A DNA stretch of 48,147 bases. Origin: a virus. Positions within the stretch are counted from its first letter, which is position 1. Each line of letters opens with the position of its first letter. Below, piece by piece: positions 1-48,147 of this stretch. A program made the translations under genes and the position numbers. Location: the IMG/VR virus record IMGVR_UViG_3300017446_000002, positions 1 to 48,147 of that record. One strand, 5' to 3'. Below the pieces are notes generated by a model, which ran no database searches, was not told where the DNA came from, and saw only the letters and a program-made list of their open reading frames with translations.

Positions 1-123
1 AGATTGACCTTGACGGCCGCGCCCAATAGTCCGCTGTCATCGGCGAGTCGCTGGAATGCCGCCACCTTTTGAGCCAAGGTGGAGCCAGTGATGCGCTGCT
101 TCGAGATAGCGGTACGAATCGAG
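1..123. repeat. Terminal direct repeat, copy 1. It is identical to 48025-48147 and is most simply an assembly overlap of a circular or permuted genome with a 48024-bp unit.
   Basis: Base-by-base comparison of the first 123 nt (agattgaccttgacggcc...ggtacgaatcgag) with the last 123 nt found no mismatch. Confidence 0.9.
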
Positions 124-1913
124 TCGTCGGTGTACAAGAGGATGCACTTCTCGCTGGCGCGGGTGATCGCCGTATAGAGCCACTCGCGAAAGTGCATGGA
201 TTTGTGCGCGGAGTGAAGGACGATGACGACGACCGGCGATTCGCCACCCTGCATCTTGTGGCAAGTCACGACGTAGGCAGTCATCAGCGAGGCGACTTCG
301 GCAAGAGTCGCGAATGAGATATCGAAAGCGTGTGTGCCTTCGCCGAACGTCACCGTAACGATATGACTCGCTGGGCCACGATCCTTCTTCTCGGCCGCAG
401 CTGCCTTTCCAGCCTCTTGCGCGCCATACGTCGACATCATATCTTCGAGGGAAATCTCGACTTCTGGCTCGTCCGCGTTCTCTTCGCGCATGTATTCGTT
501 GACGGCTTCGACGGTCCCGAATCGACGGCGATCGCCAGCCCACGCTGCATTCTCGGTAATCGACTTAATGATTCCGGTCATGCCGTTGGTGACTCCGACC
601 TCGTGGTCATTCTTCGTCGCCATGACTTTATCGCCAACCGCAAACTTCTGCCGCTCGCGCCCCGCGTCAATGATGTAGCGAGGATTGTCCTTGTTGAAGA
701 TCATCGCGAACTCACGATTCAAGGGCAACTGCCCAAGAGCGTAGCCGCGAGACTCGTCATGCCCATTGATCGCGGTGATCGTGGTGTCACGAATCGGGTC
801 GTAGATGCCCTTCTCCCAAAGAGTCGGGAGGAACTTGCGGACCTGCTGCGATGCCTTGCCGACGAGTCCGTCGAACTTGACCATCTGGAAGTTGCCCTCG
901 GTCTGCGGCATCTGACCCTTGAGGACTCGCCATGCATTCTCGACGATAGGATTCGCAGTCTCCGAGCCATCCTCGTTCTTCTGGCGATGGACCTTAGTGA
1001 GTTCGAACGACGGCCACACGCCCATTGCGAATCCGAAGATCGAACGACCGTGAACCGGCGGAAGCTGATTGATGTCGCCGATCATGATGATCTTGCAGGT
1101 AGGCTTGAGCGCGAGTCGCAGCTGTTCCCACAAGTCAACGCCGACCATACCCGCTTCGTCGATCAAGATGACGTCCCAAGGCAGTTTATTCAGCGCGTTG
1201 TAAGTCGGCTCGAATCGCATTGTCTTGCGCATGGCTTGAAGTTCGTAATTGAACTTCTCTTCCCATACCGGCATGAACGCCAACAGACGGTGAATCGTCA
1301 TGATGTTGGGATGCCACGAACGCGGGAAGTTCTTCTTAATCATCTGAGTCGAACGACCTGTGAAACCGACCGCAGCAACGGACGGCACCCACTGTTCCTC
1401 ACCGTTCGATTCGCCATCCTCGCGGGCTTGCTGCTCGTCCATGTAATCGTCGTAAGCGGACGTGCCCTTTTCGGGAATCGCTTTGAAATAGGTCTTGAGG
1501 TCGACCATGTTCAGCGAGCCCATATCCATGACTCGATCGATGATCTTCTTAGTGCAAGTGGTTTTACCCGTACCTGCCGCGCCAGTGCCGCAAGCGCCGG
1601 GGTTATCATCTACGAACAAGCCGTTGACGATTCCGTCGATCATTGCGATCTGACTCGGATCGAACGGAAAGTCATCTGCGACGAGCCGATCCAGTTTCAG
1701 CTGCTCGCGAATGCCCGATTCAATCGCAGCTTCCTGCACGTCTGGCGAGGGGCGAGCGACGGTGGCATTCTCAAGCGAGTCCTGCTCTGCCAATGCCTCA
1801 CGCACGGCCAGCTTGATGATCTGCTCGTCTTCCTGCGAATCGGTCAAGATGCGCTGCGTCATAGCGGTGGAAGCGGCGGCCTTGCGAGCCATAAGCGTTT
1901 TGAAGTCAACCAT
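1..1913 (-). CDS. RecD/Dda-like SF1B DNA helicase, 5' part. The ORF leaves the left edge and continues in frame at 48024->47433, giving 834 aa in total.
   Basis: Manual reverse translation from ATG 1913 gives MVDFKTLMARK... Helicase motifs seen: Walker A GAAGTGKTT, motif II ILIDEAGMV, motif III GDINQLPPV, VHRQ, motif V TCHKMQGGE and motif VI LYTAITRA. There is no stop before base 1. The codon phase matches track ORF 47433..48101 across the 123-bp overlap. Confidence 0.9.
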   Translation of the reverse strand, partial: MVDFKTLMARKAAASTAMTQRILTDSQEDEQIIKLAVREALAEQDSLENATVARPSPDVQEAAIESGIREQLKLDRLVADDFPFDPSQIAMIDGIVNGLFVDDNPGACGTGAAGTGKTTCTKKIIDRVMDMGSLNMVDLKTYFKAIPEKGTSAYDDYMDEQQAREDGESNGEEQWVPSVAAVGFTGRSTQMIKKNFPRSWHPNIMTIHRLLAFMPVWEEKFNYELQAMRKTMRFEPTYNALNKLPWDVILIDEAGMVGVDLWEQLRLALKPTCKIIMIGDINQLPPVHGRSIFGFAMGVWPSFELTKVHRQKNEDGSETANPIVENAWRVLKGQMPQTEGNFQMVKFDGLVGKASQQVRKFLPTLWEKGIYDPIRDTTITAINGHDESRGYALGQLPLNREFAMIFNKDNPRYIIDAGRERQKFAVGDKVMATKNDHEVGVTNGMTGIIKSITENAAWAGDRRRFGTVEAVNEYMREENADEPEVEISLEDMMSTYGAQEAGKAAAAEKKDRGPASHIVTVTFGEGTHAFDISFATLAEVASLMTAYVVTCHKMQGGESPVVVIVLHSAHKSMHFREWLYTAITRASEKCILLYTDDSIRTAISKQRITGSTLAQKVAAFQRLADDSGLLGAAVKVN

Positions 1914-1919
1914 GACTCG

Positions 1920-2837
1920 TTATCCTTTGCGGAGGAACGCGGGGGCGCGAGTAACGCCGACCGGCTTGATTGTGGGCTTAGGCTGAATCGCCTTGATGAA
2001 GGTCGGGGTCTTGGAGGGAGTCGCGGCTTTAGCCTCTACCTCTTCCGGTCCAAAAGTCGCATCCAGTTCACGATTCGAGGCGTCGTTTTCAGCTTCTGCC
2101 AAAACCGCGTCGAACAGGTTTGCATACTCGGAAGTCTTCTCTTCCTTGACTCGCTTTGCAGCCTTAGTCTTGGATTCGGGCTTGGCTTCCATGAACGTCG
2201 CGAAGAATGCGGGCTTGGCAAGCGTGTTGCCCTTGAGCCAGCGAGTCTGATCGGCTTCGAGCTTCTGATTCCGGTCGTAAACCTTGATGCAAGCGCGATA
2301 CCATTTCTCAAAGACTTCGGCCGACTTTTCACCAAAGAGGATCATGTCTTCGATTCGCAGATCGATCGTCTGGCGAGTCAGATTCATCTTGGCGTCAATC
2401 TCGATAAGCATGAAATGCAAACCGGAGACGAACTCGGAGTCCTTATTCGATTCGAGATACTGGTAGAGCTTGATTCGCGAATGCAGATCGTTCAGGCGGC
2501 GAGCCAACGGCAGTTTGTAAAAGTCGTTTGGCTGGAACAGACGATTCAGGAGATAGGCGAGCGTCTCAACCGGGCGCTTGTTCTGCATATCCGTCAACGA
2601 GTCGGTACGCATGAGGTTCCAAGCGACGGAAGGACGCATCGAAGCCAAAGTCCGAATCATCAGATCGTCGGCGGCTTCTTCGATGTCGACGGTTTCGTCA
2701 AGGATCGATTCAATCTCGTCCTGATACATGCGGCCGATTGGCTTGCCGGTGAACTGGCAATAGAGCGTCATCGGATTCATGTTCATGTTGTCTTGCATGA
2801 AGGTGACGACGTTGGAGAGGTACGATTCGTTAGTCAT
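1920..2837 (-). CDS. Hypothetical early protein (305 aa) with a K/A/P/E-rich C-terminal tail ending in the FtsZ-CTP-like motif APAFLRKG.
   Basis: Track ORF 1920..3278 was trimmed to ATG 2837 (MTNESYLSNVV...) because the upstream part overlaps the next gene. An AGGAAC SD-like element lies upstream. The last ~100 aa look disordered and carry KPAFFATF, TPTFIKA and a terminal PAFLRKG. Confidence 0.7.
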   Translation of the reverse strand: MTNESYLSNVVTFMQDNMNMNPMTLYCQFTGKPIGRMYQDEIESILDETVDIEEAADDLMIRTLASMRPSVAWNLMRTDSLTDMQNKRPVETLAYLLNRLFQPNDFYKLPLARRLNDLHSRIKLYQYLESNKDSEFVSGLHFMLIEIDAKMNLTRQTIDLRIEDMILFGEKSAEVFEKWYRACIKVYDRNQKLEADQTRWLKGNTLAKPAFFATFMEAKPESKTKAAKRVKEEKTSEYANLFDAVLAEAENDASNRELDATFGPEEVEAKAATPSKTPTFIKAIQPKPTIKPVGVTRAPAFLRKG

Positions 2838-2868
2838 GGCGAGGGTTCCTAATGGAAGGGCCAAAATG

Positions 2869-3600
2869 TTACTTGCGGCGGAGGAAAGAGGGTGCAGCGA
2901 ATCCGGCTGGAACGTGCGGCTTGGCGGCGAGCGGATAGGGCAAAGGCTGATTCTGTGCCTTGTTGGCGTCAACCAATTCGAGGATTCGTTCCTGCACCTT
3001 AGCCGGGGTGCGAACGCGGAACAACATGCCGGTGAGAAAGTCGGGGAGCGATTCGCACTTAGTCCACTTGACGTGATTCTGAAAGAGCTTGTCGGCGGCG
3101 TAATAGCACTGGTACGAATCGATCGGGCCATAGATCGACTTGCAATCTTCCGGCATACAAACGGCGAACTCCGTGTGGTTGAACGCCATATCAGTGAGTC
3201 GACGATCAAGGACCAAAGCGCGCGATTCGTCACGAGTCCACATGCGCTCGCAGCCAGCCAGCTTGCAAGCCGCCGCATAGAAACCCAACGCGACGTTGTA
3301 AGTCTTGTGAGTCTTCTGGAAGCGGCGATGATATTCGGCCAGCAATGCTTCGAGGTGAAGAGTCAACCAAACGAAATTGGCCTTCGACTCGCGCACCCAA
3401 ATGTTGCAGGGATGATTCGCGTGCGTCGGCTTATAGAGGTTTGGCGCATACTGTTCAGGCAATACGGCCATGAATCCGGGGTCAAGATGGCAAGCCGTCG
3501 AAAGCATTTGTGCCGACTCAAGAATCATCTTGATGACGTGGCGATCGTGCTGGAATCGTGCGGCTTCGCGTGGATCGTTAGACAGTGCAAATATGTTCAT
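2869..3600 (-). CDS. Conserved hypothetical protein (243 aa) ending in the FtsZ-CTP-like motif APSFLRRK.
   Basis: Track ORF 2869..3864 was trimmed to ATG 3600 (MNIFALSNDPREAARFQHDRHVIKMILESAQMLSTA...) with GGAG upstream. It contains a Cys/His-bearing HANHPCNIW segment. The N-terminus resembles a family I have seen in phage and giant-virus genomes but cannot name. Confidence 0.7.
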   Translation of the reverse strand: MNIFALSNDPREAARFQHDRHVIKMILESAQMLSTACHLDPGFMAVLPEQYAPNLYKPTHANHPCNIWVRESKANFVWLTLHLEALLAEYHRRFQKTHKTYNVALGFYAAACKLAGCERMWTRDESRALVLDRRLTDMAFNHTEFAVCMPEDCKSIYGPIDSYQCYYAADKLFQNHVKWTKCESLPDFLTGMLFRVRTPAKVQERILELVDANKAQNQPLPYPLAAKPHVPAGFAAPSFLRRK

Positions 3601-3770
3601 GCGACGCACTCCACGTTGACTGACTCGACATCGGCGGAGGTATAGCCAAACGCGCGGACCATTCCTTCGACTCCCTGCATCATAATGCGAAAGGTGGAAT
3701 TGCGGTCCACGTAAACCTGCTGATGGCCATCGTTGAACTTGATTGTGACTCGGTATGGTTGGTATGTCAT
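3597..3770 (-). CDS. Small hypothetical protein (57 aa).
   Basis: Manual translation gives MTYQPYRVTIKFNDGHQQVYVDRNSTFRIMMQGVEGMVRAFGYTSADVESVNVECVA. An AAGGAAC SD lies upstream. Its TGA stop overlaps the ATG of the downstream gene (ATGA). It falls below the track's 60-aa cutoff. Confidence 0.5.
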   Translation of the reverse strand: MTYQPYRVTIKFNDGHQQVYVDRNSTFRIMMQGVEGMVRAFGYTSADVESVNVECVA

Positions 3771-3836
3771 TGATTCGGTTCCTTACTGCTCGGAGGGAAT
3801 CAACCTCGAAAACACCGGAAAAGTCCCGGTCCGCCC

Positions 3837-3864
3837 ACAATACACATTCCGGTAAACTTGTCAA
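3837..3864 (-). promoter_or_regulatory. Sigma70-like promoter candidate on the minus strand (TTGACA-16 nt-TATTGT).
   Basis: The reverse complement reads cTTGACAagtttaccggaatgtgTATTGTgggcgg. It is followed by the hairpin ACCGGgacttttCCGGT and then GTTTTC (about 3808-3830). It sits in the gap between genes 3901..4020 and 3597..3770. Confidence 0.45.
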
Positions 3865-3900
3865 GTGTTTTCTTCGGAGTCGGTGAATTATCTCATCGAT

Positions 3901-4020
3901 TCAGTGAGTCCTCCAATACCACGCAATGCAGCCGATTACGAGCCAACACAAAAGTGTGACGGGCAGACTGATGATTCCGCCGCGGACAGGGCCATCGGTT
4001 CGTTTGTTCTTATGCAACAT
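3901..4020 (-). CDS. Possible small membrane protein (39 aa).
   Basis: This is the ATG 4020 sub-ORF of track ORF 3901..4167, reading MLHKNKRTDGPVRGGIISLPVTLLCWLVIGCIAWYWRTH. It has one hydrophobic helix and starts 1 nt after the stop of the upstream gene. Confidence 0.35.
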   Translation of the reverse strand: MLHKNKRTDGPVRGGIISLPVTLLCWLVIGCIAWYWRTH

Positions 4021-4021
4021 A

Positions 4022-4486
4022 TTAGCGACTCTTCTTCTTGGCTGCGGACAGCGATTGAGGGTATTGCGACTCGTAGTAGTTCCACAAGCGATTATATTCC
4101 TCCGGGCTGGACTCGAAGTTCGATTGGCTTGTGTGCAGGTACGTGAGTCGCTTCCAGCCTTCCTCATTTCGCCACGGGTCCAAGGCCATAGCGGCTATCT
4201 GTGCCTCTTCCTCTTCCGTAGCCGGTCTGACTCCTGCCATCATCTGCGCGTAGGCTGGCATATGTTTGAAGTCTTCCATCGGATCGTCTTTGTTCGACTC
4301 GAATGGCTTGTCGCTGACTCGCAGGTTGATCTGCAACGCGCCGCTGGAGTCCTTCTGAATCTTCTGACTCATGCACCACAGCAGGAACTCGTGAGCCATC
4401 TTCTGTAGTGAGCCCTCAAGCAACGGCACCTCCGCGATTCCGGTTGCGATTACCTTGCCGTATAACTGTCGATTCTTAATGTCCAT
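4022..4486 (-). CDS. Hypothetical early protein (154 aa).
   Basis: Track ORF starting at ATG 4486 (MDIKNRQLYGK...). It is tightly packed with its neighbours. No motif was recognised. Confidence 0.65.
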   Translation of the reverse strand: MDIKNRQLYGKVIATGIAEVPLLEGSLQKMAHEFLLWCMSQKIQKDSSGALQINLRVSDKPFESNKDDPMEDFKHMPAYAQMMAGVRPATEEEEAQIAAMALDPWRNEEGWKRLTYLHTSQSNFESSPEEYNRLWNYYESQYPQSLSAAKKKSR

Positions 4487-4489
4487 GAT

Positions 4490-4753
4490 TCAGTCCACCA
4501 TCTTAGAGTAGTCGAGTTCCCCAAACAGCGAATCAAGCGTTGCTTGCTCCGTCTTCGATTCCCCTCCGAGCCACTGTTCACGTTCTTCCGGTGAGCGAAA
4601 GACTGCAAATTCGATACGGTTGGCGAGAGTCTGACTCAACCAATAATTCATAATGGCGGCGAGGCAAACCCGCATGTCACCTTCTGCGACGGCTGATTCG
4701 TTTGGCTTGCCGACATTCTTCATCGCGACATAACGAATCGTTGTTGCTTTCAT
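4490..4753 (-). CDS. Hypothetical early protein (87 aa), the first gene of the minus-strand arm.
   Basis: Track ORF starting at ATG 4753 (MKATTIRYVAMKN...). It lies immediately downstream of the divergent intergenic region. Confidence 0.6.
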   Translation of the reverse strand: MKATTIRYVAMKNVGKPNESAVAEGDMRVCLAAIMNYWLSQTLANRIEFAVFRSPEEREQWLGGESKTEQATLDSLFGELDYSKMVD

Positions 4754-5479
4754 GAGGGGATATCCTGTTGTTTTGGGGAATCAAGAGATTAGACCGCGAT
4801 GCGGGCCAGTTAGAAGGTAGCACAAGGTTTGATGTAATGTTGTGTAAAGTTTTATTTTTATACATATTTCATATCGTACTCATATTGTATTTCATCTTCC
4901 AGACTTTCCAGCGTGAATCCCTGCACCCTCCCGGCTACCCATTGCACAGTCGCATCCTGCGAGTCGCTGCGGGTAGAGTCGGTAGATTATGAGAGGTGTG
5001 TTAGGGGGGTTCAAAAAATTCTCACTAAATACTCGAACCCAGGAATCAGGTACAATGGATATGCGCAGGAATCGTCACAACCTAGAGCGAATCATGGGAA
5101 CCGAATGCGTAACTGGCTGACGGGGAGCGGGAGAGTCGGCTTGAAACTCTGGAAGATGAAATATTAAATGAAATACGGTGTAAAGTATGAATCAAAAGAC
5201 TCGTTTGTGTAATCGGTGCTGCGAGTCTTAGCCGATCGGTCGCCGTGAGCCGAATCACGCAACAATCTAACTGTTCCACGCAACGAATCAATTGTTCCAC
5301 GACTCGGCGACTCGGTTCATCGCAGGAATCACTCGGTTCGTCGCACTTTGACTCAATTTGTCCAGGCATCGCTTGATCCCATCCGGGTTTTGCCTCATTG
5401 AGTCGTTACGGCTTCTAGCCAACACGCACACACGCACATCACGACGCACCCGCCCGCGCAGATCAAGGAGTCTCACCCA
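4754..5479. promoter_or_regulatory. Divergent non-coding control region (726 bp) between the two transcription arms. It is a candidate for early promoters, operators and the origin.
   Basis: Genes leave in opposite directions at 4753 (-) and 5480 (+). An AT-rich block at about 4838-4900 carries short repeats (catatt, atttcat). GCAGGAATC/CAGGAATC occurs 3 times, and there is a phased direct-repeat array at 5264-5339. The only ORFs here are weak ones. Confidence 0.6.
5264..5339. repeat. Iteron- or operator-like direct repeats with 21-bp phasing.
   Basis: TGTTCCACG occurs at 5272 and 5293, inside AATCTAACTGTTCCACG and AATCAATTGTTCCACG. GACTCGG occurs at 5301 and 5309. ACTCGGTTC occurs at 5310 and 5331. 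Both main pairs are spaced 21 bp apart. Confidence 0.55.
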
Positions 5480-34218: not shown

Positions 34219-34440
34219 CTAGTCGCCTTGCAGACTAAGCCAGGCTTCCCATTCAGCCCACCAGTCCTCGATTGTGCCGACTTGCGAATCCGGATACTGT
34301 GTCCGCATGTGCTCGCCGAATCGGACTGTGGCGCCAGTCAGGATGTTGAGGTAATTGGCGAACGGGATCAGAACCTCGGTGCCCTCACCAATGGTGATGT
34401 CCGAATCGCCGACCTTGTTGGGGTTCTCCGGCTCGCTCAC
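34219..34440 (-). CDS. Hypothetical protein (73 aa).
   Basis: Track ORF whose GTG start overlaps the upstream stop. It is the last gene of the minus arm. Confidence 0.55.
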   Translation of the reverse strand: MSEPENPNKVGDSDITIGEGTEVLIPFANYLNILTGATVRFGEHMRTQYPDSQVGTIEDWWAEWEAWLSLQGD

Positions 34441-35012
34441 GACCGGGCCCGCAGGTGCTTCATCGACTCGGAGTAGCAGAGCAGCTGGTAGCGGGCATCT
34501 GCGTCGGCGTCGTGCTGAGGGTACAGCGCTTCGTCACGAATCACGTCCTTCTTGGTGACGCCCGCGGCCGACATCAGGGTGCGCAGATCGCGGACTGCAT
34601 CATAGCGCCACGGTGCCACGAGTCCCAGGTCGGCGAACAGGCTGTTGAGGATCGCGATGTCGAAGTCGGAGCCGCGCGCCCATACCTCGCAGCCGTCATT
34701 GCCGACGATGTTGCCGAACGAACGAATCAGATGACGGACCAGCGCCGGCAGTTCGTCGAAGTCGTCGCCGTTCGAGAGAATCAGCAGGTCCTGGAAGTTC
34801 GGCTGACCGGCCCAGAACTGGAGGGTCGAAGCGCCGACGGTACGATTCAGGGCGAGCTGGGCATCGATCGGAAGGTGAACCACGACCGACTTGATGATCG
34901 TCTCGGGATCGTCGGCGGGCACGAATACGAATGCGACCTGCATCACGACTGCCTTCGATGTGGTGTTCAGCGTCTCGGAATCGACCATGCAGATGAATTT
35001 GGGATCAGTCAT
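34437..35012 (-). CDS. DnaQ-like 3'-5' exonuclease, DEDDh type (191 aa).
   Basis: Exo I MVDSET, Exo II GSDFDIAILN, Exo III YPQHDADADA (H-x4-D). Confidence 0.75.
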   Translation of the reverse strand: MTDPKFICMVDSETLNTTSKAVVMQVAFVFVPADDPETIIKSVVVHLPIDAQLALNRTVGASTLQFWAGQPNFQDLLILSNGDDFDELPALVRHLIRSFGNIVGNDGCEVWARGSDFDIAILNSLFADLGLVAPWRYDAVRDLRTLMSAAGVTKKDVIRDEALYPQHDADADARYQLLCYSESMKHLRARS

Positions 35013-36328
35013 TTCTTGTCTCCGCGTTTTGAAAGAATCTTAAGCATCTCGTCTTCGATGTTATGCTTAGAGAAGTTGGCGCTAATATGAACTTGACCAT
35101 CGCGCTGCTGAATCAAGTTTACCTGTCCGCTCTGTTTCAGATCATTGATTATCTCCATGATGTCTATGGCTCTGGCGTCACGCGTGAACATGGCGGTCAG
35201 GGCGTTTACGGGAATCGGTCCTAGCTGCTGGCGAAGGGCCTCAAGGACCTCCTGCTTAACAACAGCCAAAGGATTCATGCCGAACTCACCAAGCGCGTCG
35301 GGCATCCCGGACTCGGTGGCGCGAAGGATCGTGTGGGCTTCCTCAACGTCGACTTCCTCGATCACCATCGTGCCGCGACTCGCAGCTACGGCCATCGACA
35401 GTTTGATAAGGTGGGTGTAACGTCGTTCAGCGTAGTATCCAAAGCGCGAATCAGCGATGTCAATTTTATATTCGTAGAGTTCACGCGATCTGCGCTCTGC
35501 TGCCGCTGTTTCCGAGAAAGCTCCTGCCATCTTGTAATAGATGTCATTGAGTCGTTGTCCAACGCGATCTGTGAGTTCAACGGGCGGAACTGTAGGTCGA
35601 GGAACAGATTTATATTTACGCGCTCCATACACAAGTATGATTCGAGATAGAAAGCCCTGTCCGCCAGCCGCAGGTGGCATTGAATTTGCAATACTAGTCG
35701 GAGTCGTGCAGCCAACGATGTTAAGTAGAGGATTCTTAAGCTCGGTCTTTGAGCTTTTGAGCTGATACTCATAATCGTCTCCATCCCACATCGTTGCCAG
35801 AAAGTCCAGCATCTGCAAATTGTTCTGCCCGATGAATCGCGAGAACTCCTGACTGACCACGGCTAGGTGGTGCTTGTCGGCTTCGCTGATGAACTGGGCC
35901 TCTTCCGACTCGGGTTGATTCGTGACTTCCATGATGTCCGTAATCGACAGCATGGATTTGTCACGACCCGCGACTTCGACGTTATCGAGAAACTCTTTGG
36001 ATGGATTCTCTTCCCCCTGCATTGCAGCTACCAAACCCTGCCGCTGGCCCGCCGTATCCTGTGGTGCGAATCGTACACCCGTGTTCCCCTTGAGACTCTT
36101 CTTGCCCATGCTTGCGGCGGTGGACTTGCGAGTGCCGGGCGTACCGACGAACAGGATGTACTGATTCGGGAATATCTGCATCGGACCAAATGGGAAGTAA
36201 CACCGCCGCCCCAACGCGCAGCTTACGTTGAACAACGCTTGCCAGACGTGGTAGAGTCGGGGTGATTCCGTCTCTTCCACCATCTGCAAGTAGTCGTTCA
36301 GATAATCGGAATTGAATTGAAGGTCCAC
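35009..36328 (-). CDS. DUF3987-like P-loop replicative helicase or NTPase (439 aa). No primase domain was seen.
   Basis: Walker A GTPGTRKST, a Walker B-like LAVVSQEF, and then NIVGCTTP. The start (GTG 36328 or a downstream ATG) is uncertain. Confidence 0.6.
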   Translation of the reverse strand: MDLQFNSDYLNDYLQMVEETESPRLYHVWQALFNVSCALGRRCYFPFGPMQIFPNQYILFVGTPGTRKSTAASMGKKSLKGNTGVRFAPQDTAGQRQGLVAAMQGEENPSKEFLDNVEVAGRDKSMLSITDIMEVTNQPESEEAQFISEADKHHLAVVSQEFSRFIGQNNLQMLDFLATMWDGDDYEYQLKSSKTELKNPLLNIVGCTTPTSIANSMPPAAGGQGFLSRIILVYGARKYKSVPRPTVPPVELTDRVGQRLNDIYYKMAGAFSETAAAERRSRELYEYKIDIADSRFGYYAERRYTHLIKLSMAVAASRGTMVIEEVDVEEAHTILRATESGMPDALGEFGMNPLAVVKQEVLEALRQQLGPIPVNALTAMFTRDARAIDIMEIINDLKQSGQVNLIQQRDGQVHISANFSKHNIEDEMLKILSKRGDKK

Positions 36329-36335
36329 GTCTGAC

Positions 36336-36911
36336 TCAGCGCAGGAAGCCGTTGCGCTTCAGACCGTCCATGACCATAATGGCCGTGTCCGCGATCGAGA
36401 TATTCTGGAGGAACATCGACCAGCTTTGGTCCGACTCGACGTAGCGGCGGGAGTCGTTGGCCCAGTCGATCTTCGGGCGGGAGAGTCGCACAGTCACGAC
36501 CTGATCCGGGCCGACCAGATGCTCGATATACCGCAGCTCATCCGGGAATCCCAGGTCCGGGATGAAGATGACGCCGGGCTTCTCGCGGGTGATCTGATTC
36601 GCATTGGCGACGCAGCGGCCCCAGAAGTCAGAGCCGTACCGCGCCTTCATAAAGTTTTCGGACAGGCCGATCATCAGCTCACGAATCGTGCCGCCGTTCA
36701 GGACCGAAAGGCCGGTGTCCTTGATCGAGTTGTAGAGCGCGAAATCCTTGGGATCGTATCCGGCGAGATTCATTGCAGCTTCCCGCATCGGGCGCGCAAA
36801 ATGATCCATCAGCGTCGGAACGTCGGTCTCGTTGTCGATCAAGGTGCGAACTGCTTGAGCGACGGAATCCTTGCCGACCTTGGGTGGGCCGGAGAACATT
36901 ACTACGAACAT
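36336..36911 (-). CDS. dNMP kinase-like protein, T4 gp1-type (191 aa), ending in GFLR.
   Basis: P-loop FSGPPKVGKDS, then GSDFWGR, IFIPDLGFPDE and VTVRLSRP, in the same order as in T4 gp1. An AAGGGA SD lies upstream. Confidence 0.6.
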   Translation of the reverse strand: MFVVMFSGPPKVGKDSVAQAVRTLIDNETDVPTLMDHFARPMREAAMNLAGYDPKDFALYNSIKDTGLSVLNGGTIRELMIGLSENFMKARYGSDFWGRCVANANQITREKPGVIFIPDLGFPDELRYIEHLVGPDQVVTVRLSRPKIDWANDSRRYVESDQSWSMFLQNISIADTAIMVMDGLKRNGFLR

Positions 36912-36946
36912 GTCGATTCCCTTACTGCGCGGGATGGAAGAGGAAA

Positions 36947-36978
36947 CTGCGGGGACCCGAAAGTCCGAATCCCCGCAG
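36947..36978 (-). other. Perfect 9-bp stem hairpin in an intergenic gap, possibly an attenuator or terminator.
   Basis: CTGCGGGGA (36947-36955) pairs with TCCCCGCAG (36970-36978). The downstream tract on the minus strand is only weakly T-rich. Confidence 0.4.
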
Positions 36979-36983
36979 AGTAA

Positions 36984-37205
36984 TCAGGCGGCGAGCGATG
37001 CGCGGAGTGCGGCCAGCTCGACTCGAATCTGCACCGCGGCGGGCGGCGACATCTCGTCGAGGAAACCACCGCCGGCGACTGCACCGCTGGACGACGTCGA
37101 ATCGGGATTCGGGATCAGCGCCAAGAGGACATCGACCTTCGCCTGTGCGTTCGCTGCACCTGCGTAGTTGCCGAGGACCTGGACTCCCTGCCCAGAGTTA
37201 GCCAT
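36984..37205 (-). CDS. Hypothetical protein (73 aa).
   Basis: Track ORF. It overlaps the DNA polymerase stop by 8 nt. Confidence 0.5.
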   Translation of the reverse strand: MANSGQGVQVLGNYAGAANAQAKVDVLLALIPNPDSTSSSGAVAGGGFLDEMSPPAAVQIRVELAALRASLAA

Positions 37206-39834: not shown

Positions 39835-40073
39835 AGATCGAGAGCCTTCTGCGCGCGCAGCTTGCCGACGTAATACTTAACGAGGTCCGTGCGACTCGCA
39901 GGCATCGACAGGTTGTTGGCCTTGGGAAGCGGGAAGCCGACGCGAGCGCAATCGTCCTGCCACATCTTGTTGATCTCGTCGCGAGTCACGCCCTCGGGCA
40001 GCTTCTCACCGTTCATCACGTCCGGAGTCGCGACCGGCACGTGGGCGAACTTGGTCTGCGTGGTGTTGGTCAC
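39831..40073 (-). CDS. Hypothetical protein (80 aa).
   Basis: Track ORF 39831..40163 was trimmed to GTG 40073. That start has an AAGGAAG SD 7 nt upstream and overlaps the upstream stop (GTGA). Confidence 0.5.
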   Translation of the reverse strand: MTNTTQTKFAHVPVATPDVMNGEKLPEGVTRDEINKMWQDDCARVGFPLPKANNLSMPASRTDLVKYYVGKLRAQKALDL

Positions 40074-40345
40074 TTGATTACTTCCTTGCCAAAGTCCAGG
40101 AGGATCTGATTCATCTCCTGCTTGTTGCCCACGAAGATCGGGACCACAGCGGTGCCGGTCCAAGTGCTGACGTAGGTGGTCTGGTCCGAGTCGAGCATCC
40201 GCTGCAACTCTTCCTTAGTGAACTTCCATGCCGAGACGACTTGCGATCCGTTCATGAGAACGTCGAGTCGTCCCTGCCTTTCTTCTTCGCCGCGAGCCGG
40301 ACCAAAGTTATGGGTCTGGCCTGCGAATGGTACTGGTTCTGCCAT
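40070..40345 (-). CDS. Hypothetical protein (91 aa).
   Basis: Track ORF with a strong AAGGAG SD upstream of ATG 40345. Confidence 0.65.
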   Translation of the reverse strand: MAEPVPFAGQTHNFGPARGEEERQGRLDVLMNGSQVVSAWKFTKEELQRMLDSDQTTYVSTWTGTAVVPIFVGNKQEMNQILLDFGKEVIK

Positions 40346-40432
40346 CGGAATGACTCCTTAGTAGAGCCGTGCGAGCCACAGGGGGGCTGCTTTAGGAGGG
40401 GCTTAAAGCCGACTCGCACGACTCAACTAAAG

Positions 40433-40453
40433 GGAGGGGATCGCACCCCCTCC
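40433..40453 (-). terminator. Candidate terminator hairpin on the minus strand.
   Basis: The minus strand reads GGAGGGG gtgcgat CCCCTCC CTTTAGTT. It lies directly after gene 40461..41024, and the U-tract is weak. Confidence 0.45.
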
Positions 40454-40460
40454 GCAGTAG

Positions 40461-41024: not shown

Positions 41025-41058
41025 GATTCGTTACTTTCTGTTGTGTGCGTTGTGTTTG

Positions 41059-42135
41059 TTAGCTTGCCTTCTTGGCCATCAATGCAGCGAACCCTTTCGG
41101 GGCCTGAATCGCACTGGTGGTATTCCCCGCGGCTACGGGGGAATCTGTGGTCGAGTCGGAGTTCTGCAACACCTTGGCTTCCGCCGGGGCGAACGATCCG
41201 TTCTCGTGAATTACTAGCGCCGGTTCGAGTGGCGCATTCTCGGTCGGTATGAATCCGCCGACCAGAGCGATCAGTTTGGCGAAGGAATATTCCTCCATCT
41301 TCTTCACGTCGGTCCAGTGTCCACCGCTGATTCGCTCGGGGGACAGCTTGAAGTTGAGGCGACGCTCGGTGCCGGCAGGATTCGTTTCCATCCATGCGAC
41401 ATCGGTAAAGAACTTGGCCATCGTCAGGGCGTGTGGCTTGGAGCATGACTTCGGAATCATCTTGGTCCAGAGAACGCGCATGTCGGTCTCTTTGATGTCC
41501 TTGACTCGGACGCCTTCCGGACGCTCCTGCTTCACGAACTCGTCGGGGTGAGCGATGACGATGACGTGGCACTGGATTCGCTGGATGATGACGAGGAACT
41601 GAGTCAGCTTCTGCCCTGCACCCGCATAGACGGCACGCATCTGCGCGGACGACGCGGCCGAAATGTCGACTCCCTCGGCGCGAGCCACCATCATCATGGC
41701 CGACTGAACCAGCGAGGTCCACGAGTCGATCACGAGGACCCAATTGTAATTGAGCTTGGACGGGAAGATTTCCCACACGTCCTTGCCGACGATTCCCTCA
41801 CCGACGAGGTCCTTGTTCGTCAGGATTTTCGAGTCGGTGTCATTCCACAAGACCTTGATCTTGCCGAAGAACTCCATCATGAACTGGACGAACTGAGTCC
41901 CGATCGCACCGCCATCCTGGAGTCGATCGCCGACGTTCATGACGAGCAGGTTCTGCTTGGCCTTGTCGGGCAGCTGCTGAATCGTCTCGTTGGCAACGTC
42001 GCCGTTGAGATAGAGGACATTGAATCCGGACTCTGCGGGGAGCCCCGCGTAGTACGTCTTGCCGATCTTGCCATCGCCGATCAGAAGGAGTCGGGCGAAG
42101 TTGTTGGTGGTGACAGCGTTGCTTGCGCGGGGCAT
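41059..42135 (-). CDS. AAA_24/Sak4-like RecA-fold ATPase (358 aa).
   Basis: Walker A LLLIGDGKIGKT and Walker B WVLVIDSWTSL. A GAAGGA SD lies upstream. The C-terminal tail ends APKGFAALMAKKAS. Confidence 0.6.
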   Translation of the reverse strand: MPRASNAVTTNNFARLLLIGDGKIGKTYYAGLPAESGFNVLYLNGDVANETIQQLPDKAKQNLLVMNVGDRLQDGGAIGTQFVQFMMEFFGKIKVLWNDTDSKILTNKDLVGEGIVGKDVWEIFPSKLNYNWVLVIDSWTSLVQSAMMMVARAEGVDISAASSAQMRAVYAGAGQKLTQFLVIIQRIQCHVIVIAHPDEFVKQERPEGVRVKDIKETDMRVLWTKMIPKSCSKPHALTMAKFFTDVAWMETNPAGTERRLNFKLSPERISGGHWTDVKKMEEYSFAKLIALVGGFIPTENAPLEPALVIHENGSFAPAEAKVLQNSDSTTDSPVAAGNTTSAIQAPKGFAALMAKKAS

Positions 42136-42139
42136 TGAG

Positions 42140-42738: not shown

Positions 42739-42741
42739 GAC

Positions 42742-43830: not shown

Positions 43831-43902
43831 GTGCCTCTCTCCTTCTCTCTGTACGCTCAAGATTCTTGAGGTAGTGGTAATACTTATTCGTGGGGTCGCC
43901 CG

Positions 43903-44937: not shown

Positions 44938-45022
44938 GAGCCGAACCACACAAGCAAGAGGATAACCGGCCACATCAGGACGATGTAGCGTTGAATCGGG
45001 ATGGTCCCGCGGAGCCACTGAA

Positions 45023-45784
45023 TCATGAGAAGTCCATCCCTTCCAACGCTTCCAGCACCGCCAGATCATTGATTTCGGTCTTCTTGGCCTTCGGCGAACG
45101 CTTGGCCTTCGACTCTTCCTTCTTGATCCGAGCCAGACCCATCGACTCGCGCATACCGCGAACCATCGTGTGCATGTCGGAAGGCGCGATCAGCTTGCGA
45201 TACTCCGGATGATTCTGGAGTTCGATCATGATGCCGCGAACGACTCCGCCCAGCAAGTCCGGCTCGTGGATGACGCGGTAGATCGAGTCTAGCGAATCGA
45301 CGAATGCTTTACCGGCCGGTTCCAACTCCGGGGGTAAGTCGCGAGCTGGCCCCGTAGCAGGAATCTCGTCCTGAAAGCGGGACTTGTGAGTCGGCTGCTC
45401 GCTGTTGAGCAAGCGGTCGAGGTCGCCCATCGGTTCGGCTTTGCCGGTAACGGCTTGACTCGGAGTGGCCACCGGAGTCTTGGGCTCTGGCGTAAGTACC
45501 GATACGCGCTTCTCTTGAGTCGGCGCGCTTGACCCGATCCGATTTTTGAGGAACCCAAGCCCAGCGGCCGGGACAACCGCCGGAACTCCTCCGGATTCCT
45601 TTGCAGGTGCAGCCACCTCCGCAGGTTTGTTTGCAGCCTTGAGGAAGGCGAGTCCGGTCTTAGGCGGCGAAACCGATTCGCTACCAGTTTCCACTTGAGC
45701 GGCAGGTGCGCTGGGCGTTTCCGTTGGGACATCGGGCGATTCCTTCTTGGCCTTTTGGGCCGCGAGTAGAGCTTGTAGACTCAT
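45023..45784 (-). CDS. Hypothetical protein (253 aa) with a disordered P/A-rich N-terminal half carrying two GLxFLK motifs.
   Basis: Track ORF. The motifs are KTGLAFLKAANK and AAGLGFLKNRIG. The N-terminus is MSLQALLAAQKAKK. Confidence 0.7.
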   Translation of the reverse strand: MSLQALLAAQKAKKESPDVPTETPSAPAAQVETGSESVSPPKTGLAFLKAANKPAEVAAPAKESGGVPAVVPAAGLGFLKNRIGSSAPTQEKRVSVLTPEPKTPVATPSQAVTGKAEPMGDLDRLLNSEQPTHKSRFQDEIPATGPARDLPPELEPAGKAFVDSLDSIYRVIHEPDLLGGVVRGIMIELQNHPEYRKLIAPSDMHTMVRGMRESMGLARIKKEESKAKRSPKAKKTEINDLAVLEALEGMDFS

Positions 45785-46107: not shown

Positions 46108-46126
46108 CGTGAGTCCTCCTTTCTAC

Positions 46127-47335: not shown

Positions 47336-47436
47336 AAGTGAATCGCTCCTGTCATGAAGAGGTAGAGGAATCGGATCACGACCATCGGAATGATGATGGC
47401 CGCGAATCCAATGAGACAGCCAACGGGGCTATTCAT
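47329..47436 (-). CDS. Possible small holin-like membrane protein (35 aa).
   Basis: Manual translation gives MNSPVGCLIGFAAIIIPMVVIRFLYLFMTGAIHLW. Its ATG overlaps the helicase stop (ATGA), and its end overlaps the next start by 7 nt. Confidence 0.4.
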   Translation of the reverse strand: MNSPVGCLIGFAAIIIPMVVIRFLYLFMTGAIHLW

Positions 47437-48147
47437 TTCTTGTTCTGCGCCAAGAGCCAAGCCAGCGACTTCTTAGCAGGAGTCGCAACAGGCTTCTCAC
47501 CTTTGCTCGGAGTCTCAAGCGGCTTCTGGTCCGGATTCATTCCGCGGATCATCTGCAACATCGATTCCTTCTTGGGGGCGGGGAGGCGAAGGATGGTGGG
47601 GTCGGGGCGCTTCGCTTGGTAATGAGTCACAACCGGACCAGACGCCACGACCGCGGTATTCGCGGCTTTGACCAGCCTTTCAGCAATAAGCGGGGCGGGT
47701 TCAGGCGCTTTGCCGACCAAAGACGCCATTGCCTGTTCCAAGCCAGCTTTCCGATTCTCCGCCGCCGTCGGCATCGGCTGCTTTGCGAACAGCTTGGAGA
47801 GACCCTTGAGTACGATAGCCCCCTGCTCCGGACTCCCATGGTGGTGGTGATGCTCATGCTTTATCTCGACCTTGTTGATGTTGATCTGAGTCGCGGACTT
47901 GAGGAAGGAGGGGCGTTGGGGTGGAGGTGCAATCGGCTCCGCCTTCGATTCCTCCTCACTGTCCAACAAACGATCAAGTGCGGAATCGGCCCGCTCAACG
48001 ATAGCCGTGTTGCCGCCCCACCGCAGATTGACCTTGACGGCCGCGCCCAATAGTCCGCTGTCATCGGCGAGTCGCTGGAATGCCGCCACCTTTTGAGCCA
48101 AGGTGGAGCCAGTGATGCGCTGCTTCGAGATAGCGGTACGAATCGAG
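47433..48147 (-). CDS. 3' part of the same RecD/Dda-like helicase gene. It encodes a non-helicase C-terminal extension; 48025-48147 duplicates 1-123.
   Basis: Track ORF 47433..48101 (…QKVAAFQRLADDSGLLGAAVKVNLRWGG...) is the in-frame continuation of the ORF that leaves the window at base 1. It contains PSFLKSA and HEHHHHH and ends SLAWLLAQNKK. Confidence 0.85.
   Translation of the reverse strand, partial: SIRTAISKQRITGSTLAQKVAAFQRLADDSGLLGAAVKVNLRWGGNTAIVERADSALDRLLDSEEESKAEPIAPPPQRPSFLKSATQININKVEIKHEHHHHHGSPEQGAIVLKGLSKLFAKQPMPTAAENRKAGLEQAMASLVGKAPEPAPLIAERLVKAANTAVVASGPVVTHYQAKRPDPTILRLPAPKKESMLQMIRGMNPDQKPLETPSKGEKPVATPAKKSLAWLLAQNKK
48025..48147. repeat. Terminal direct repeat, copy 2, identical to 1-123.
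   Basis: Direct comparison of the two ends found them identical. Confidence 0.9.

What the first reader, a model, noticed from the sequence alone, without database searches (positions are those of the whole stretch)
1920..2895. Two adjacent early proteins end in a near-exact copy of the FtsZ conserved C-terminal peptide (PAFLRK / PSFLRRK)
The 305-aa product of 1920..2837 ends ...GVTRAPAFLRKG* (codons 1923-1946). The 243-aa product of 2869..3600 ends ...GFAAPSFLRRK* (codons 2872-2895).

The conserved C-terminal peptide of bacterial FtsZ is D-[IV]-P-x-F-[LMI]-R-[KRN]. Examples are E. coli ...DIPAFLRKQAD and B. subtilis ...DIPTFLRNR. This peptide is the docking site for FtsA, ZipA, ZapD, MinC, SlmA, SepF, EzrA and ClpX. 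PAFLRK is a 6/6 match to the E. coli core.

The first protein also mimics FtsZ architecture. It has a roughly 100-aa K/A/P/E-rich, apparently disordered linker (1920-2231) with two degenerate copies (KPAFFATF and TPTFIKA) before the terminal motif. More copies sit on other early and replication proteins, covered in the findings at 36336, 45545 and 47433.

My inference is that this phage decorates several proteins with an FtsZ-tail mimic. That could titrate the divisome FtsZ-binding proteins and so block division, or it could dock phage proteins onto them for membrane or mid-cell localisation of replication. The known phage division inhibitors I am aware of (lambda Kil, T7 Gp0.4) act on FtsZ itself. 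I know of no described multi-protein FtsZ-tail mimicry. Together with the GANTC excess, this hints at an alphaproteobacterial-style cell-cycle hijack.
Basis: partly seen in the sequence, partly recalled or inferred. Interest (0 to 1): 0.9.

Follow-up and report, generated by a model that had tools for sequence, protein, structure and literature searches.

The report
Shared docking tails on phage replication proteins
Two neighbouring phage proteins do end in a peptide that looks like the tail of the bacterial division protein FtsZ, but related phages show it is one local version of a fast-changing docking tag shared by several replication and repair proteins, so it is probably not an FtsZ mimic.

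Summary
The 305-aa protein gpA (1920-2837, minus strand) ends in APAFLRKG*, and the 243-aa protein gpB (2869-3600, minus strand) ends in APSFLRRK*. P[AS]FL[KR] occurs 3 times in the early proteome against 0.014 expected.

The FtsZ reading does not survive comparison with relatives.
- Among 209 gpA-family proteins a basic-hydrophobic C-terminal tail is nearly universal. Only 2 keep a strict FtsZ core, none has the FtsZ "D-I/V-P" start, and 47% read [FW]G, as in MPxRFGVKK.
- Other lineages use NPFARR or RLGRIKL.
- Within each genome the same lineage-specific version recurs on gpA, gpB, the RecD-like helicase (N-terminus and C-terminus) and the disordered region of a 253-aa protein.
- The gpA and gpB tails co-vary (exact permutation p = 3e-4), and their codons differ at synonymous sites.
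- gpB is a DenV-like glycosylase whose homologues outside this phage group lack the linker and tail.

My best reading is a modular docking peptide on a flexible tether. It would recruit replication, recombination and repair enzymes to one co-evolving receptor, probably phage-encoded, which I did not identify. The principle resembles the T4 gp45-binding tails and the T7 acidic tails. It is a new variant of a known kind, of moderate interest.

The parts
1920..2837 (-). gpA: a 305-aa orphan protein. It has an all-helical folded domain (residues 1-256), a disordered linker (about 257-297) and a basic-hydrophobic C-terminal tail. Its gene lies immediately upstream of the helicase gene.
   Evidence: ORF. 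AF2 model with pLDDT 87. No Pfam or PHROG family. No Foldseek or PDB relative. 90 homologues and 216 representatives, all stand-alone proteins of about 270-350 aa.
1923..1946 (-). gpA C-terminal docking tail, APAFLRKG*. This is the class I motif in the version used by this lineage.
   Evidence: The position is conserved in homologues while the sequence is lineage-specific.
1947..2069 (-). gpA flexible linker, residues 257-297, rich in P, K, A and T. It contains TPTFIKA (1989-2009), which is not conserved.
   Evidence: pLDDT of 47-61. Variable alignment columns. Coordinates.
2187..2222 (-). LAKPAFFATFME, a conserved helix inside the folded gpA domain. It is not a copy of the tail.
   Evidence: Helix 207-218 at high pLDDT. 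A210 and P220 are nearly invariant in all lineages.
2869..3600 (-). gpB: a DenV-like (Pyr_excise) pyrimidine-dimer DNA glycosylase domain (residues 1 to about 198), followed by a Pro-rich extension and the tail.
   Evidence: Pfam PF03013 at E = 1.7e-5, 25.6 bits against a cut-off of 23. Homologues in cultured phages cover only residues 1-171 to 1-211. Homologues of 137-199 aa lack the extension, and most of the 224-268 aa versions (several on 45-49 kb contigs of this phage group) carry it.
2872..2895 (-). gpB C-terminal docking tail, APSFLRRK*.
   Evidence: It co-varies with the gpA tail of the same contig.
1..1913 (-). N-terminal 637 aa of the RecD/Dda-like SF1 helicase, 834 aa in total. The gene runs off the window start and continues at the window end, because the window ends carry a 123-nt direct repeat. 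An N-terminal motif, VDFKTLMARK, is encoded at 1881-1910.
   Evidence: Pfam AAA_19, AAA_30, SH3_13 and UvrD_C_2.
47433..48024 (-). C-terminal disordered region of the same helicase. It carries RPSFLKS (47895-47915), KGLSKLFAKQ (47778-47807) and the terminal SLAWLLAQNKK* (47436-47468).
   Evidence: Relatives carry their own lineage's version at the helicase N-terminus and C-terminus.
45023..45784 (-). 253-aa adaptor-like protein. Its N-terminal disordered region holds three motif copies: SLQALLAAQKAKK (45743-45781), GLAFLKAANK (45626-45655) and GLGFLKNRIG (45533-45562). A small helical domain and an acidic C-terminal tail, INDLAVLEALEGMDFS* (45026-45073), follow.
   Evidence: The internal copies follow the lineage type: NPFA in L002 and L003, GLRFGTK in L006, GFKFGAK in L009 and GLGGLKLAK in L004.
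41059..42135 (-). AAA_24 (Sak4-like, RecA-core) protein with a disordered linker and the class II tail KGFAALMAKKAS* (41062-41097).
   Evidence: Pfam hit. AF2 gives the core 1-320 at pLDDT above 90, a disordered linker and a tail helix 350-357 at about 65. Nearly all of the 120 listed homologues end in a short hydrophobic-basic tail of the KG[LMF][AS]xL[MFL]xKK kind.

Best explanation
The two tails are instances of a modular docking peptide, a short linear motif on a flexible tether. An uncultured group of roughly 48-kb phages attaches it to the N-termini, C-termini or disordered regions of several DNA-metabolism proteins. These are gpA (an orphan helical protein encoded next to the helicase), gpB (a DenV-like glycosylase), the RecD/Dda-like helicase and a 253-aa adaptor-like protein. 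A related, more conserved variant sits on the Sak4-like recombinase.

The peptide has a hydrophobic or aromatic anchor followed by two basic residues. I infer that it binds a groove on one common receptor and so concentrates these enzymes at the phage replication and recombination machinery. The sequence changes from lineage to lineage, but changes together on all carriers within a genome. The receptor must therefore co-evolve with it, which points to a phage-encoded partner rather than a conserved host hub. Candidates are the tail-less PolA, the DUF3987 primase-helicase, the helicase core and the gpA domain itself.

The match to the FtsZ C-terminal peptide in this lineage is best read as convergence on a generic docking shape: hydrophobic residue, Pro, any residue, Phe, hydrophobic residue, then two basic residues.

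- **Shown:** the motif, its positions, its enrichment, its co-variation, and its modular gain by gpB.
- **Inferred:** that it binds a protein groove, and that the receptor is phage-encoded.
- **Unknown:** which protein the receptor is.
For: 1. **Conserved in place, not in sequence.** Nearly all full-length gpA homologues end in such a tail. The net charge of the last 10 residues averages +2.3, against -0.4 per 10 residues in the folded domain.
2. **Same version on different proteins of one genome.**
   - L003: NPFARRQA* on gpA, MSNNPFAKK... and ...NPFARRA* on the helicase, MVGINPFAKR... on a small ORF, and PANPFAG in the homologue of the 253-aa protein.
   - L006: KMPLRFGVKRS* on gpA, KMPTRFGVKKS* on gpB, MKFGVRK... 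on the helicase, and GLRFGTK in the homologue of the 253-aa protein.
   - L004: RLGKLNL, RLGRIKL and LKLGIKR.
   - L005: PAWLRKK and PSWLKRS.
3. **Co-variation is significant.** Over 9 same-contig pairs of gpA and gpB tails, the exact permutation test gives p = 3.1e-4. Four pairs were verified on fetched DNA (the window).
4. **Selection acts on the peptide.** The tail codons differ at synonymous sites, so this is not recent gene conversion.
5. **The tail is modular.** DenV-like proteins outside this phage group (137-199 aa) lack the linker and tail, while most of the 224-268 aa versions, several on 45-49 kb contigs of this group, have it.
6. **Tether architecture.** AF2 shows a confident domain, then a low-pLDDT linker, then a short terminal helix, in both gpA and Sak4.
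7. **Enrichment.** 3 against 0.014 and 6 against 0.17 in early proteins, none in late proteins, and replicated in L007.
8. **Who lacks it.** PolA, the DUF3987 primase-helicase and the PD-(D/E)XK nuclease have no tails in four lineages.
9. **Precedent.** T4 gp43, gp33 and gp55 share interchangeable C-terminal clamp-binding epitopes on unstructured linkers (PMC2988020). T7 replication proteins dock acidic C-terminal tails on the polymerase (PMC12339929).
Against: - No receptor was identified and no binding was tested.
- AF2 monomer models give only pLDDT 65-71 for the tails, so they provide no sign of docking onto the protein's own domain.
- The co-variation test rests on 9 pairs that are phylogenetically non-independent (6 belong to the PxFL clade). 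Five of the pairings rest on matching contig lengths only.
- The lineage-specific patterns were chosen after seeing the data, except for L007.
- If the lineages infect very different hosts, a host receptor could also differ between them. The hosts are unknown.
Confidence: 0.6

Rival explanations
1. FtsZ C-terminal-peptide mimicry. The tails would bind host proteins that recognise the FtsZ CTP (FtsA, ZipA, SepF, MinC, ZapD and others). They would either titrate those proteins and block division, or dock phage proteins at the membrane or mid-cell.
For: The core matches PxF[LMI][RK][KRN] at 6 of 6 positions in gpA and gpB, sits at the extreme C-terminus and follows a disordered linker. A third copy, RPSFLKS, lies in the helicase tail. 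Close relatives read [ILV]P[AS]FL[ILR][KR], very like IPAFLRK. The FtsZ CTP is a known multi-partner docking site (PMC5832921). The GANTC excess is real and is compatible with a host that has CcrM.
Against: A strict FtsZ core is kept in only 2 of 209 family members, and the acidic D/E-[IVL]-P start in none. In the window the equivalent residues are R-A-P and A-A-P. Homologous tails in sister lineages read RFGVKK, NPFARR or RLGRIKL, and they co-vary within genomes. This is not what I would expect for a ligand of receptors that read a near-invariant host peptide. The GANTC excess is equally strong in all lineages. The carriers are DNA replication, recombination and repair enzymes, and nothing in the genome points to cell division. 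Other copies in the same phage lack the Pro (GLAFLK, GLGFLK, SLAWLL).
Confidence: 0.07
2. Host sliding-clamp (DnaN) recruitment. The tails would be unorthodox clamp-binding peptides, like APIM or the T4 clamp epitopes. They would load phage helicase, recombinase and glycosylase onto the host beta clamp.
For: The carriers are replication and repair proteins, the motifs sit at extreme termini on flexible linkers, and several copies occur per protein. That is the typical pattern for clamp clients (PMC11139829). APIM, [KR][FYW][LIVA][LIVA][KR], has been reported to bind the bacterial beta clamp (PMC7261172; PMC11139829). RFGVK and AFLLK each miss APIM at one position. From memory, unverified here, the T4 gp43 tail reads approximately SLDFLF, close to the SLAFLM and SLAWLL found here.
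Against: The canonical CBM, Q-aliphatic-x-[LM]-[FL], is found in 0 of 209 tails and strict APIM in 1 of 209. Gln at position 1 is almost universal in natural clamp ligands. The polymerase, the archetypal clamp client, has no tail. No clamp or clamp-loader family was hit in any early protein of 80 aa or more. The beta-clamp pocket is highly conserved, so the lineage-specific drift and co-variation are as awkward for this reading as for FtsZ partners.
Confidence: 0.12
3. Non-specific electrostatic and hydrophobic anchor. The basic-aromatic tails would bind the anionic membrane, like the MinD, FtsA or Noc targeting helices, or bind DNA directly, raising local concentration without any specific protein receptor.
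For: The tails average +2.3 net charge with an aromatic or Leu anchor. They occur at N-termini and C-termini and in several copies, which suits avidity. The class II versions (SLAWLLAQNKK, GFAALMAKK) could form short amphipathic helices.
Against: Such binding needs no exact sequence. Yet 12 of the last 14 residues are identical between the tails of two unrelated proteins in L006 (PS[TM]KMPxRFGVK[RK]S). The lineage-specific co-variation also implies a sequence-reading partner. The class I tails contain Pro and Gly and offer only 6-7 residues, which is too short for a classical membrane-targeting helix.
Confidence: 0.1
4. Recognition tag for a host chaperone or protease (DnaK-type hydrophobic-basic sites, or ClpX N-domain or degron motifs), or a cargo-loading peptide for a protein shell, as in encapsulin or capsid targeting.
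For: The general style is similar: a hydrophobic core flanked by basic residues at the termini, after a flexible linker. This comparison rests on my own knowledge and no tool tested it.
Against: Internal multi-copy arrays in disordered regions and the co-variation across proteins do not fit a generic degron or chaperone site. The carriers are early DNA enzymes, not virion or cargo proteins.
Confidence: 0.05

Closest known systems
T4-type clamp-binding C-terminal epitopes on gp43, gp33 and gp55
   Same: Several unrelated phage proteins share one short terminal peptide. [quoted passage not shown]
   Different: The T4 epitope is hydrophobic and acidic and binds the phage's own gp45 clamp. Here the peptide is hydrophobic and basic. 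It also occurs at N-termini and as internal repeats. No clamp gene was found, the polymerase lacks the tag, and the receptor is unknown.
T7 acidic C-terminal tails of gp2.5 and gp4, which dock on the gp5 polymerase
   Same: Replisome proteins share a terminal tail that docks on a phage-encoded partner (PMC12339929). The acidic ...EGMDFS* tail of the 253-aa protein fits this type.
   Different: The gpA and gpB tails carry the opposite charge. More kinds of protein carry the tag here, including a glycosylase and a recombinase.
FtsZ conserved C-terminal peptide (CTP)
   Same: The core P-x-F-L-[RK]-[RK] sits at the extreme C-terminus after a disordered linker. By analogy it may form a short amphipathic docking helix.
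   Different: The acidic D-[IV] start is missing. The sequence is not conserved among homologues (2 of 209). It sits on DNA enzymes. It co-varies with other phage proteins instead of staying fixed like the FtsZ CTP.
APIM, PIP-box and CBM sliding-clamp motifs
   Same: These are short hydrophobic motifs, often flanked by basic residues, found at the termini of replication and repair proteins (PMC11139829).
   Different: The defining positions are not met. No Gln is present, and strict APIM occurs in 1 of 209 tails.

Membership tests
FtsZ C-terminal peptide mimic | Core P-x-F-[LMI]-[RK]-[KRN] at or near the C-terminus | tested here: met
   gpA has PAFLRK and gpB has PSFLRR.
FtsZ C-terminal peptide mimic | An acidic residue and an aliphatic residue before the Pro (D-[IV]-P) | tested here: not met
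   gpA has R-A-P and gpB has A-A-P. [DE][IVL]P.F[LMI] is found in 0 of 209 family tails.
FtsZ C-terminal peptide mimic | The motif is held constant among homologues, as expected for a ligand of receptors that read the FtsZ CTP | tested here: not met
   A strict core is present in 2 of 209 tails and a loose P.[FW][LMI] in 19 of 209. Most tails read [FW]G, NPFA or LKLN types.
FtsZ C-terminal peptide mimic | Long disordered linker before the peptide | tested here: inconclusive
   A linker exists but is only about 40 aa in gpA, not about 100. gpB has a Pro-rich extension of about 45 aa that I did not model.
FtsZ C-terminal peptide mimic | Binds FtsA, ZipA, SepF, MinC, ZapD or other CTP partners | not testable with these tools
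   No complex prediction or binding assay was available, and the host is unknown.
Beta-clamp binding motif (CBM) | Q-aliphatic-x-[LM]-[FL], or the hexameric variant (PMC11139829) | tested here: not met
   Found in 0 of 209 gpA-family tails. None of the window copies has Gln at position 1.
APIM | [KR]-[FYW]-[LIVA]-[LIVA]-[KR] | tested here: not met
   AFLRK and SFLRR fail at positions 1 and 4. The motif is present in 1 of 209 tails. RFGVK fails at position 3.
Shared terminal hub-docking peptide of a phage replisome (T4 and T7 principle) | The same short peptide on several different replication proteins of one phage | tested here: met
   It is on gpA, gpB, the helicase and the 253-aa protein in the window, and in its lineage-specific form in L003, L004, L006 and L009; L007 has no gpB and shows it on the other three, and L005 shows the W version on gpA and gpB.
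Shared terminal hub-docking peptide of a phage replisome (T4 and T7 principle) | Joined to the folded domain by a divergent, unstructured linker | tested here: met
   AF2 shows low-pLDDT linkers in gpA and Sak4. The corresponding alignment columns are variable.
Shared terminal hub-docking peptide of a phage replisome (T4 and T7 principle) | An identified hub that binds the peptide | not testable with these tools
   No clamp or clamp-loader family was hit in the early proteins. The tails are not confidently docked onto their own domains. Complexes could not be predicted.
Membrane-targeting amphipathic helix (MinD or FtsA type) | An amphipathic helix of at least about 8-10 residues, with tolerance for sequence change as long as amphipathicity is kept | tested here: inconclusive
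   The class I tails are 6-7 residues and contain Pro or Gly. The near-identical tails within genomes argue for sequence-specific reading. No lipid binding could be tested.
Pyr_excise / DenV-like glycosylase (gpB N-terminal domain) | Pfam PF03013 match above the gathering score | tested here: met
   25.6 bits against a cut-off of 23, E = 1.7e-5, residues 1-99. 599 phage records match residues 1 to about 171-211.

The most novel reading that the evidence does not exclude
In the PxFL[RK] lineage to which this window belongs, the shared tag may have converged on the FtsZ C-terminal peptide because it really does dock the phage helicase, glycosylase and gpA onto host FtsZ-CTP receptors such as FtsA, ZipA, SepF or FzlC. 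That would tether phage replication to the membrane or divisome, or titrate those proteins. It would be multi-protein FtsZ-tail mimicry, which to my knowledge has not been described.

A second, more likely novel reading is also open. The complementary basic and acidic tails could form a self-contained, fast-evolving peptide address code that assembles a multivalent replication and recombination factory around an orphan phage hub.
Probability: 0.07. Interest if true: 0.85.

Novelty: new variant of a known kind. Interest (0 to 1): 0.5.

Why it matters
If this reading is right, an abundant uncultured phage group organises its replication, recombination and repair enzymes with a short peptide address. 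That address evolves quickly but in concert on at least four proteins, and it can be bolted onto newly acquired enzymes such as the DenV-like glycosylase.

This would be a clean natural system for studying how docking motifs and their receptors co-evolve. It gives a direct way to find the hub of an unknown replisome: screen the tails against the roughly 25 early proteins. It also offers a general rule for annotating orphan phage proteins by their terminal tags.

The case is a caution as well. A 6-of-6 match to a famous host motif can be a chance point on a continuum of variants.

Tried and rejected
- **Relatives of gpA.**
  - tblastn of gpA against 50,697 phage records found no match.
  - Scans of viral contigs and GTDB genome contigs with gpA patterns found no relative, so I have no host clue.
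  - The nearest cultured PolA is only 24-28% identical (Pseudomonas 119X/PaP2-like phages, Polaromonas phage Tiera).
- **Function of gpA.**
  - Pfam and PHROGs found no family.
  - Foldseek of the confident AF2 model against the PDB and BFVD gave nothing below E = 0.2.
  - An HMM profile against PDB sequences found nothing.
  - A profile search of 1.84 billion representatives returned only stand-alone homologues, with no informative domain fusions.
- **Tail peptides against PDB sequences.** No hit, because the queries are too short.
- **Phage-encoded clamp or clamp loader.** I looked in all early proteins of 80 aa or more and found none.
- **Tail docking onto its own domain.** I looked for a high pLDDT in the tails of gpA and Sak4 and saw only 71 and 65. 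This says nothing about the receptor.
- **Charge of the early proteins.** Net charge and pI did not single out an acidic receptor candidate.
- **Gene conversion as the cause of the similar tails.** Rejected, because the codons differ at synonymous sites.
- **A broad pattern, [FWL][LM].{0,2}[KR][KR].** It is not enriched (5 against 3.9), so only the specific patterns carry signal.
- **The dNMP-kinase ending NGFLR* as a copy.** Rejected, because relatives end in ...RSFI*...GWSFN* or ...GWGI*.
- **Literature.** Searches found no description of FtsZ-CTP mimicry by phages or of this motif.
Full report
**1. The observation**

The window is a phage-like genome of about 48 kb and 57% G+C. Early and replication genes lie on the minus strand (1-5,400 and 34,400-48,147). 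Structural genes lie on the plus strand. The window ends repeat 123 nt, so it is a circular or terminally redundant assembly.

- gpA (1920-2837, minus strand, 305 aa) ends ...GVTRAPAFLRKG*.
- gpB (2869-3600, minus strand, 243 aa) ends ...GFAAPSFLRRK*.

The motif is far more frequent than chance in 26 curated early proteins. P[AS]FL[KR] occurs three times against 0.014 in shuffles. The broader [PL][AGS][FW]L[KRLM] occurs six times against 0.17 (0 of 5000 shuffles in both cases). The broader pattern has no hit in 8,505 aa of late ORFs. Applied unchanged to an independent relative, L007, it hits gpA, the helicase and the homologue of the 253-aa protein: 3 hits against 0.15.

**2. Anatomy of the two proteins**

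gpA has no Pfam or PHROG family.
- With an 88-sequence alignment, AlphaFold2 gives a confident model (pLDDT 87). Residues 1-256 form an all-helical domain, residues 257-297 or so are disordered, and the last residues form a short helix at pLDDT 71.
- The model has no relative in the PDB or BFVD.
- The true linker is about 40 aa, not about 100.

gpB is a DenV-like pyrimidine-dimer glycosylase (PF03013, above the cut-off) followed by a Pro-rich extension and the tail.
- Homologues in cultured phages align only to residues 1-171 up to 1-211.
- In the large protein collection, the ordinary 137-199 aa family members have no extension. Most of the 224-268 aa versions, several of which sit on 45-49 kb contigs, carry a linker plus tail.
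- The tail is therefore a module added to an accessory repair enzyme in this phage group.

**3. Homologues keep the tail but not its sequence**

The search returned 90 gpA homologues and 216 representatives at 50% clustering, all stand-alone proteins. Nearly all end in a basic-hydrophobic peptide.
- Close relatives read [ILV]P[AS]FL[ILR][KR], which is very like FtsZ.
- The commonest form is [ST]KMPx[RK]FG[VG]KK.
- Other forms are NPFARR, xLKLGKLNLAKK, GMLFKKKES and GFKFGGxK.

Counts over 209 full-length proteins:

| Feature in the tail | Count |
|---|---|
| Strict FtsZ core | 2 |
| Loose P.[FW][LMI] | 19 |
| Acidic D/E-[IVL]-P start | 0 |
| [FW]G type | 98 |
| Strict APIM | 1 |
| Canonical clamp-binding motif | 0 |

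The net charge of the last 10 residues averages +2.3.

**4. The same version recurs on several proteins of one genome**

I fetched nine related loci and read the termini of their genes.

| Genome | gpA | gpB | Helicase | 253-aa protein or its homologue |
|---|---|---|---|---|
| Window | PAFLRKG* | PSFLRRK* | MVDFKTLMARK..., RPSFLKS, GLSKLFAKQ, SLAWLLAQNKK* | SLQALLAAQKAKK, GLAFLKAANK, GLGFLKNRIG |
| L003 | NPFARRQA* | no gpB called | MSNNPFAKK..., ...NPFARRA* | PANPFAG |
| L006 | KMPLRFGVKRS* | KMPTRFGVKKS* | MKFGVRK... | GLRFGTK |
| L004/L008 | RLGKLNLAKKG* | RLGRIKL* | ...KLALKLGIKR* | GLGGLKLAK |
| L005 | PAWLRKK... | PSWLKRSV* | not read | not in the locus |
| L009 | RFGGKK* | RFGSSN* | MNPFAKK..., ...NPWARKLGKG* | GFKFGAK |

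L003 also has a small ORF that starts MVGINPFAKR.

- For nine gpA and gpB pairs from the same contig, tail similarity exceeds random pairing (exact permutation p = 3.1e-4).
- The pairs are phylogenetically non-independent, and five rest on matching contig length only.
- The tail codons differ at synonymous positions, so selection acts on the peptide.

A second, more uniform variant, class II, reads KG[LMF][AS]xL[MFL]xKK or close to it. Tails of this kind end nearly all 120 listed Sak4-like proteins. It also starts the 253-aa protein and recurs in the helicase tail. PolA, the DUF3987 primase-helicase and the PD-(D/E)XK nuclease carry no such tails in four lineages. The dNMP-kinase ending NGFLR* is not conserved.

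**5. Mechanism**

- **Shown:** a short, enriched peptide that is positionally conserved, lineage-specific and co-varying. It sits on flexible tethers at the termini or in disordered regions of at least four replication, recombination and repair proteins, and accessory enzymes have gained it as a module.
- **Inferred:** it is a docking motif for one common receptor. Because the peptide changes in concert across carriers, the receptor must change with it. That favours a phage-encoded partner over a conserved host hub.
- **Candidates:** the tail-less PolA or DUF3987 helicase-primase (T7-like logic), the helicase core, or the orphan gpA domain. gpB, gpA and the helicase are encoded side by side.
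- **Unknown:** the receptor itself. AF2 monomer models do not show the tails docked on their own domains.

**6. Rival explanations**

- **FtsZ-CTP mimicry (about 7%).** It is supported only by the local 6-of-6 core match. Against it stand the missing acidic start, the drift in sister lineages, the co-variation and the DNA-enzyme carriers. But it is 2.5-3.1-fold in every lineage whatever the tail type.
- **Host beta clamp (about 12%).** This is attractive by analogy with APIM and the T4 epitopes. But no tail has the Gln of the CBM, the polymerase is untagged, no clamp or clamp loader was found, and a conserved pocket does not explain the drift.
- **Non-specific membrane or DNA anchoring (about 10%).** It cannot explain 12 of the last 14 residues being identical between the tails of unrelated proteins in one genome.
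- **Degron, chaperone or cargo tags (about 5%).** These fit poorly with internal multi-copy arrays.

**7. Comparison with known systems**

The principle matches T4, where gp43, gp33 and gp55 share interchangeable clamp-binding C-terminal epitopes on unstructured linkers (PMC2988020). It also matches T7, where acidic tails dock on the polymerase (PMC12339929).

The differences are:
- the chemistry, which is basic rather than acidic;
- the placement, which includes N-termini and repeats;
- the set of carriers;
- the rapid lineage-specific co-variation;
- the absence of a recognisable hub.

Membership of the FtsZ-CTP, CBM and APIM motif classes fails on defining positions.

**8. Verdict**

The FtsZ interpretation is only partly supported: the multi-protein tag is real, but mimicry is unlikely. 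I rate this a new variant of a known kind, of moderate interest. The decisive work is tail-versus-proteome complex prediction or pull-downs, and identification of the host.

Noticed in passing
whole window; also L001-L009: GANTC occurs 827 times against 311 ± 17 expected, about 17 per kb. The spacing is unusually regular: mean 58 bp, CV 0.49 where a random process gives about 1, and a mode of 50-59 bp. In the long plus-strand genes the site prefers one codon phase. The same 2.5-3.1-fold excess is present in every related locus, so it is a trait of the whole phage group.
   Followed up: partly
window 1-123 and 48025-48147: There is a 123-nt direct repeat at the two window ends, which indicates a circular or terminally redundant assembly. 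As a result the 834-aa RecD-like helicase gene is split across the window ends (1913 down to 1, then 48024 down to 47433).
   Followed up: yes
window 45026-45073 and 40860-40913: Two proteins carry a similar acidic amphipathic tail. One is the C-terminus of the 253-aa protein (INDLAVLEALEGMDFS*). The other is the N-terminal region of the 187-aa protein encoded just after Sak4 (GGFALSDLMDLDVSGIDE). Both are conserved in relatives, as D.DML[AS]DL[DE].[LM] and F[SA]L[AS]DL[AM]DLDV. This may be a second, SSB-like or T7-like docking motif, complementary in charge to the basic tails.
   Followed up: partly
window 47838-47858; helicase tails in L002, L004, L006 and L009: The helicase C-terminal disordered region contains a His-rich or alternating-His stretch in five of the seven lineages whose helicase tails I read. 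Examples are HEHHHHH in the window, VHVHVHVTEHHTHT in L006 and VVHIHTHTV in L009. It could be a metal-binding or beta-strand element.
   Followed up: no
window 41062-41097; P0211-P0330: Nearly all of the 120 listed AAA_24 (Sak4-like) homologues of this phage group end in a short hydrophobic-basic tail, most often close to KG[LMF][AS]xL[MFL]xKK, after a conserved KVLDGT linker motif. The same motif starts the 253-aa protein (for example MANGLAGLIKKQK in L009). It could be a recombinase-docking or polymerisation peptide analogous to the RAD51/BRC FxxA motif. That idea is speculative.
   Followed up: partly
window 46434-47078: A Peptidase_M15_4 (endolysin-like) gene sits inside the early replication operon. 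In L004 and L006 the corresponding position holds an SLT-like gene instead.
   Followed up: no
window 1920-2837 (gpA): The folded gpA domain has invariant residues (C27, T30-G31-K32, R62, R68-P69-S70, N74, Y95) within YCQxTGKPIG, ASMRPSxxWN and ETLAYLLNRLF. This suggests a catalytic or specific binding site in an orphan fold with no structural relatives.
   Followed up: partly
window 36336-36911: The dNMP-kinase-like protein ends NGFLR*. Relatives end ...WLRTRSFI*, ...LGWSFN* or ...LGWGI*. This is a different aromatic C-terminal ending that lacks the dibasic part, so it is probably not a copy of the docking tag.
   Followed up: yes
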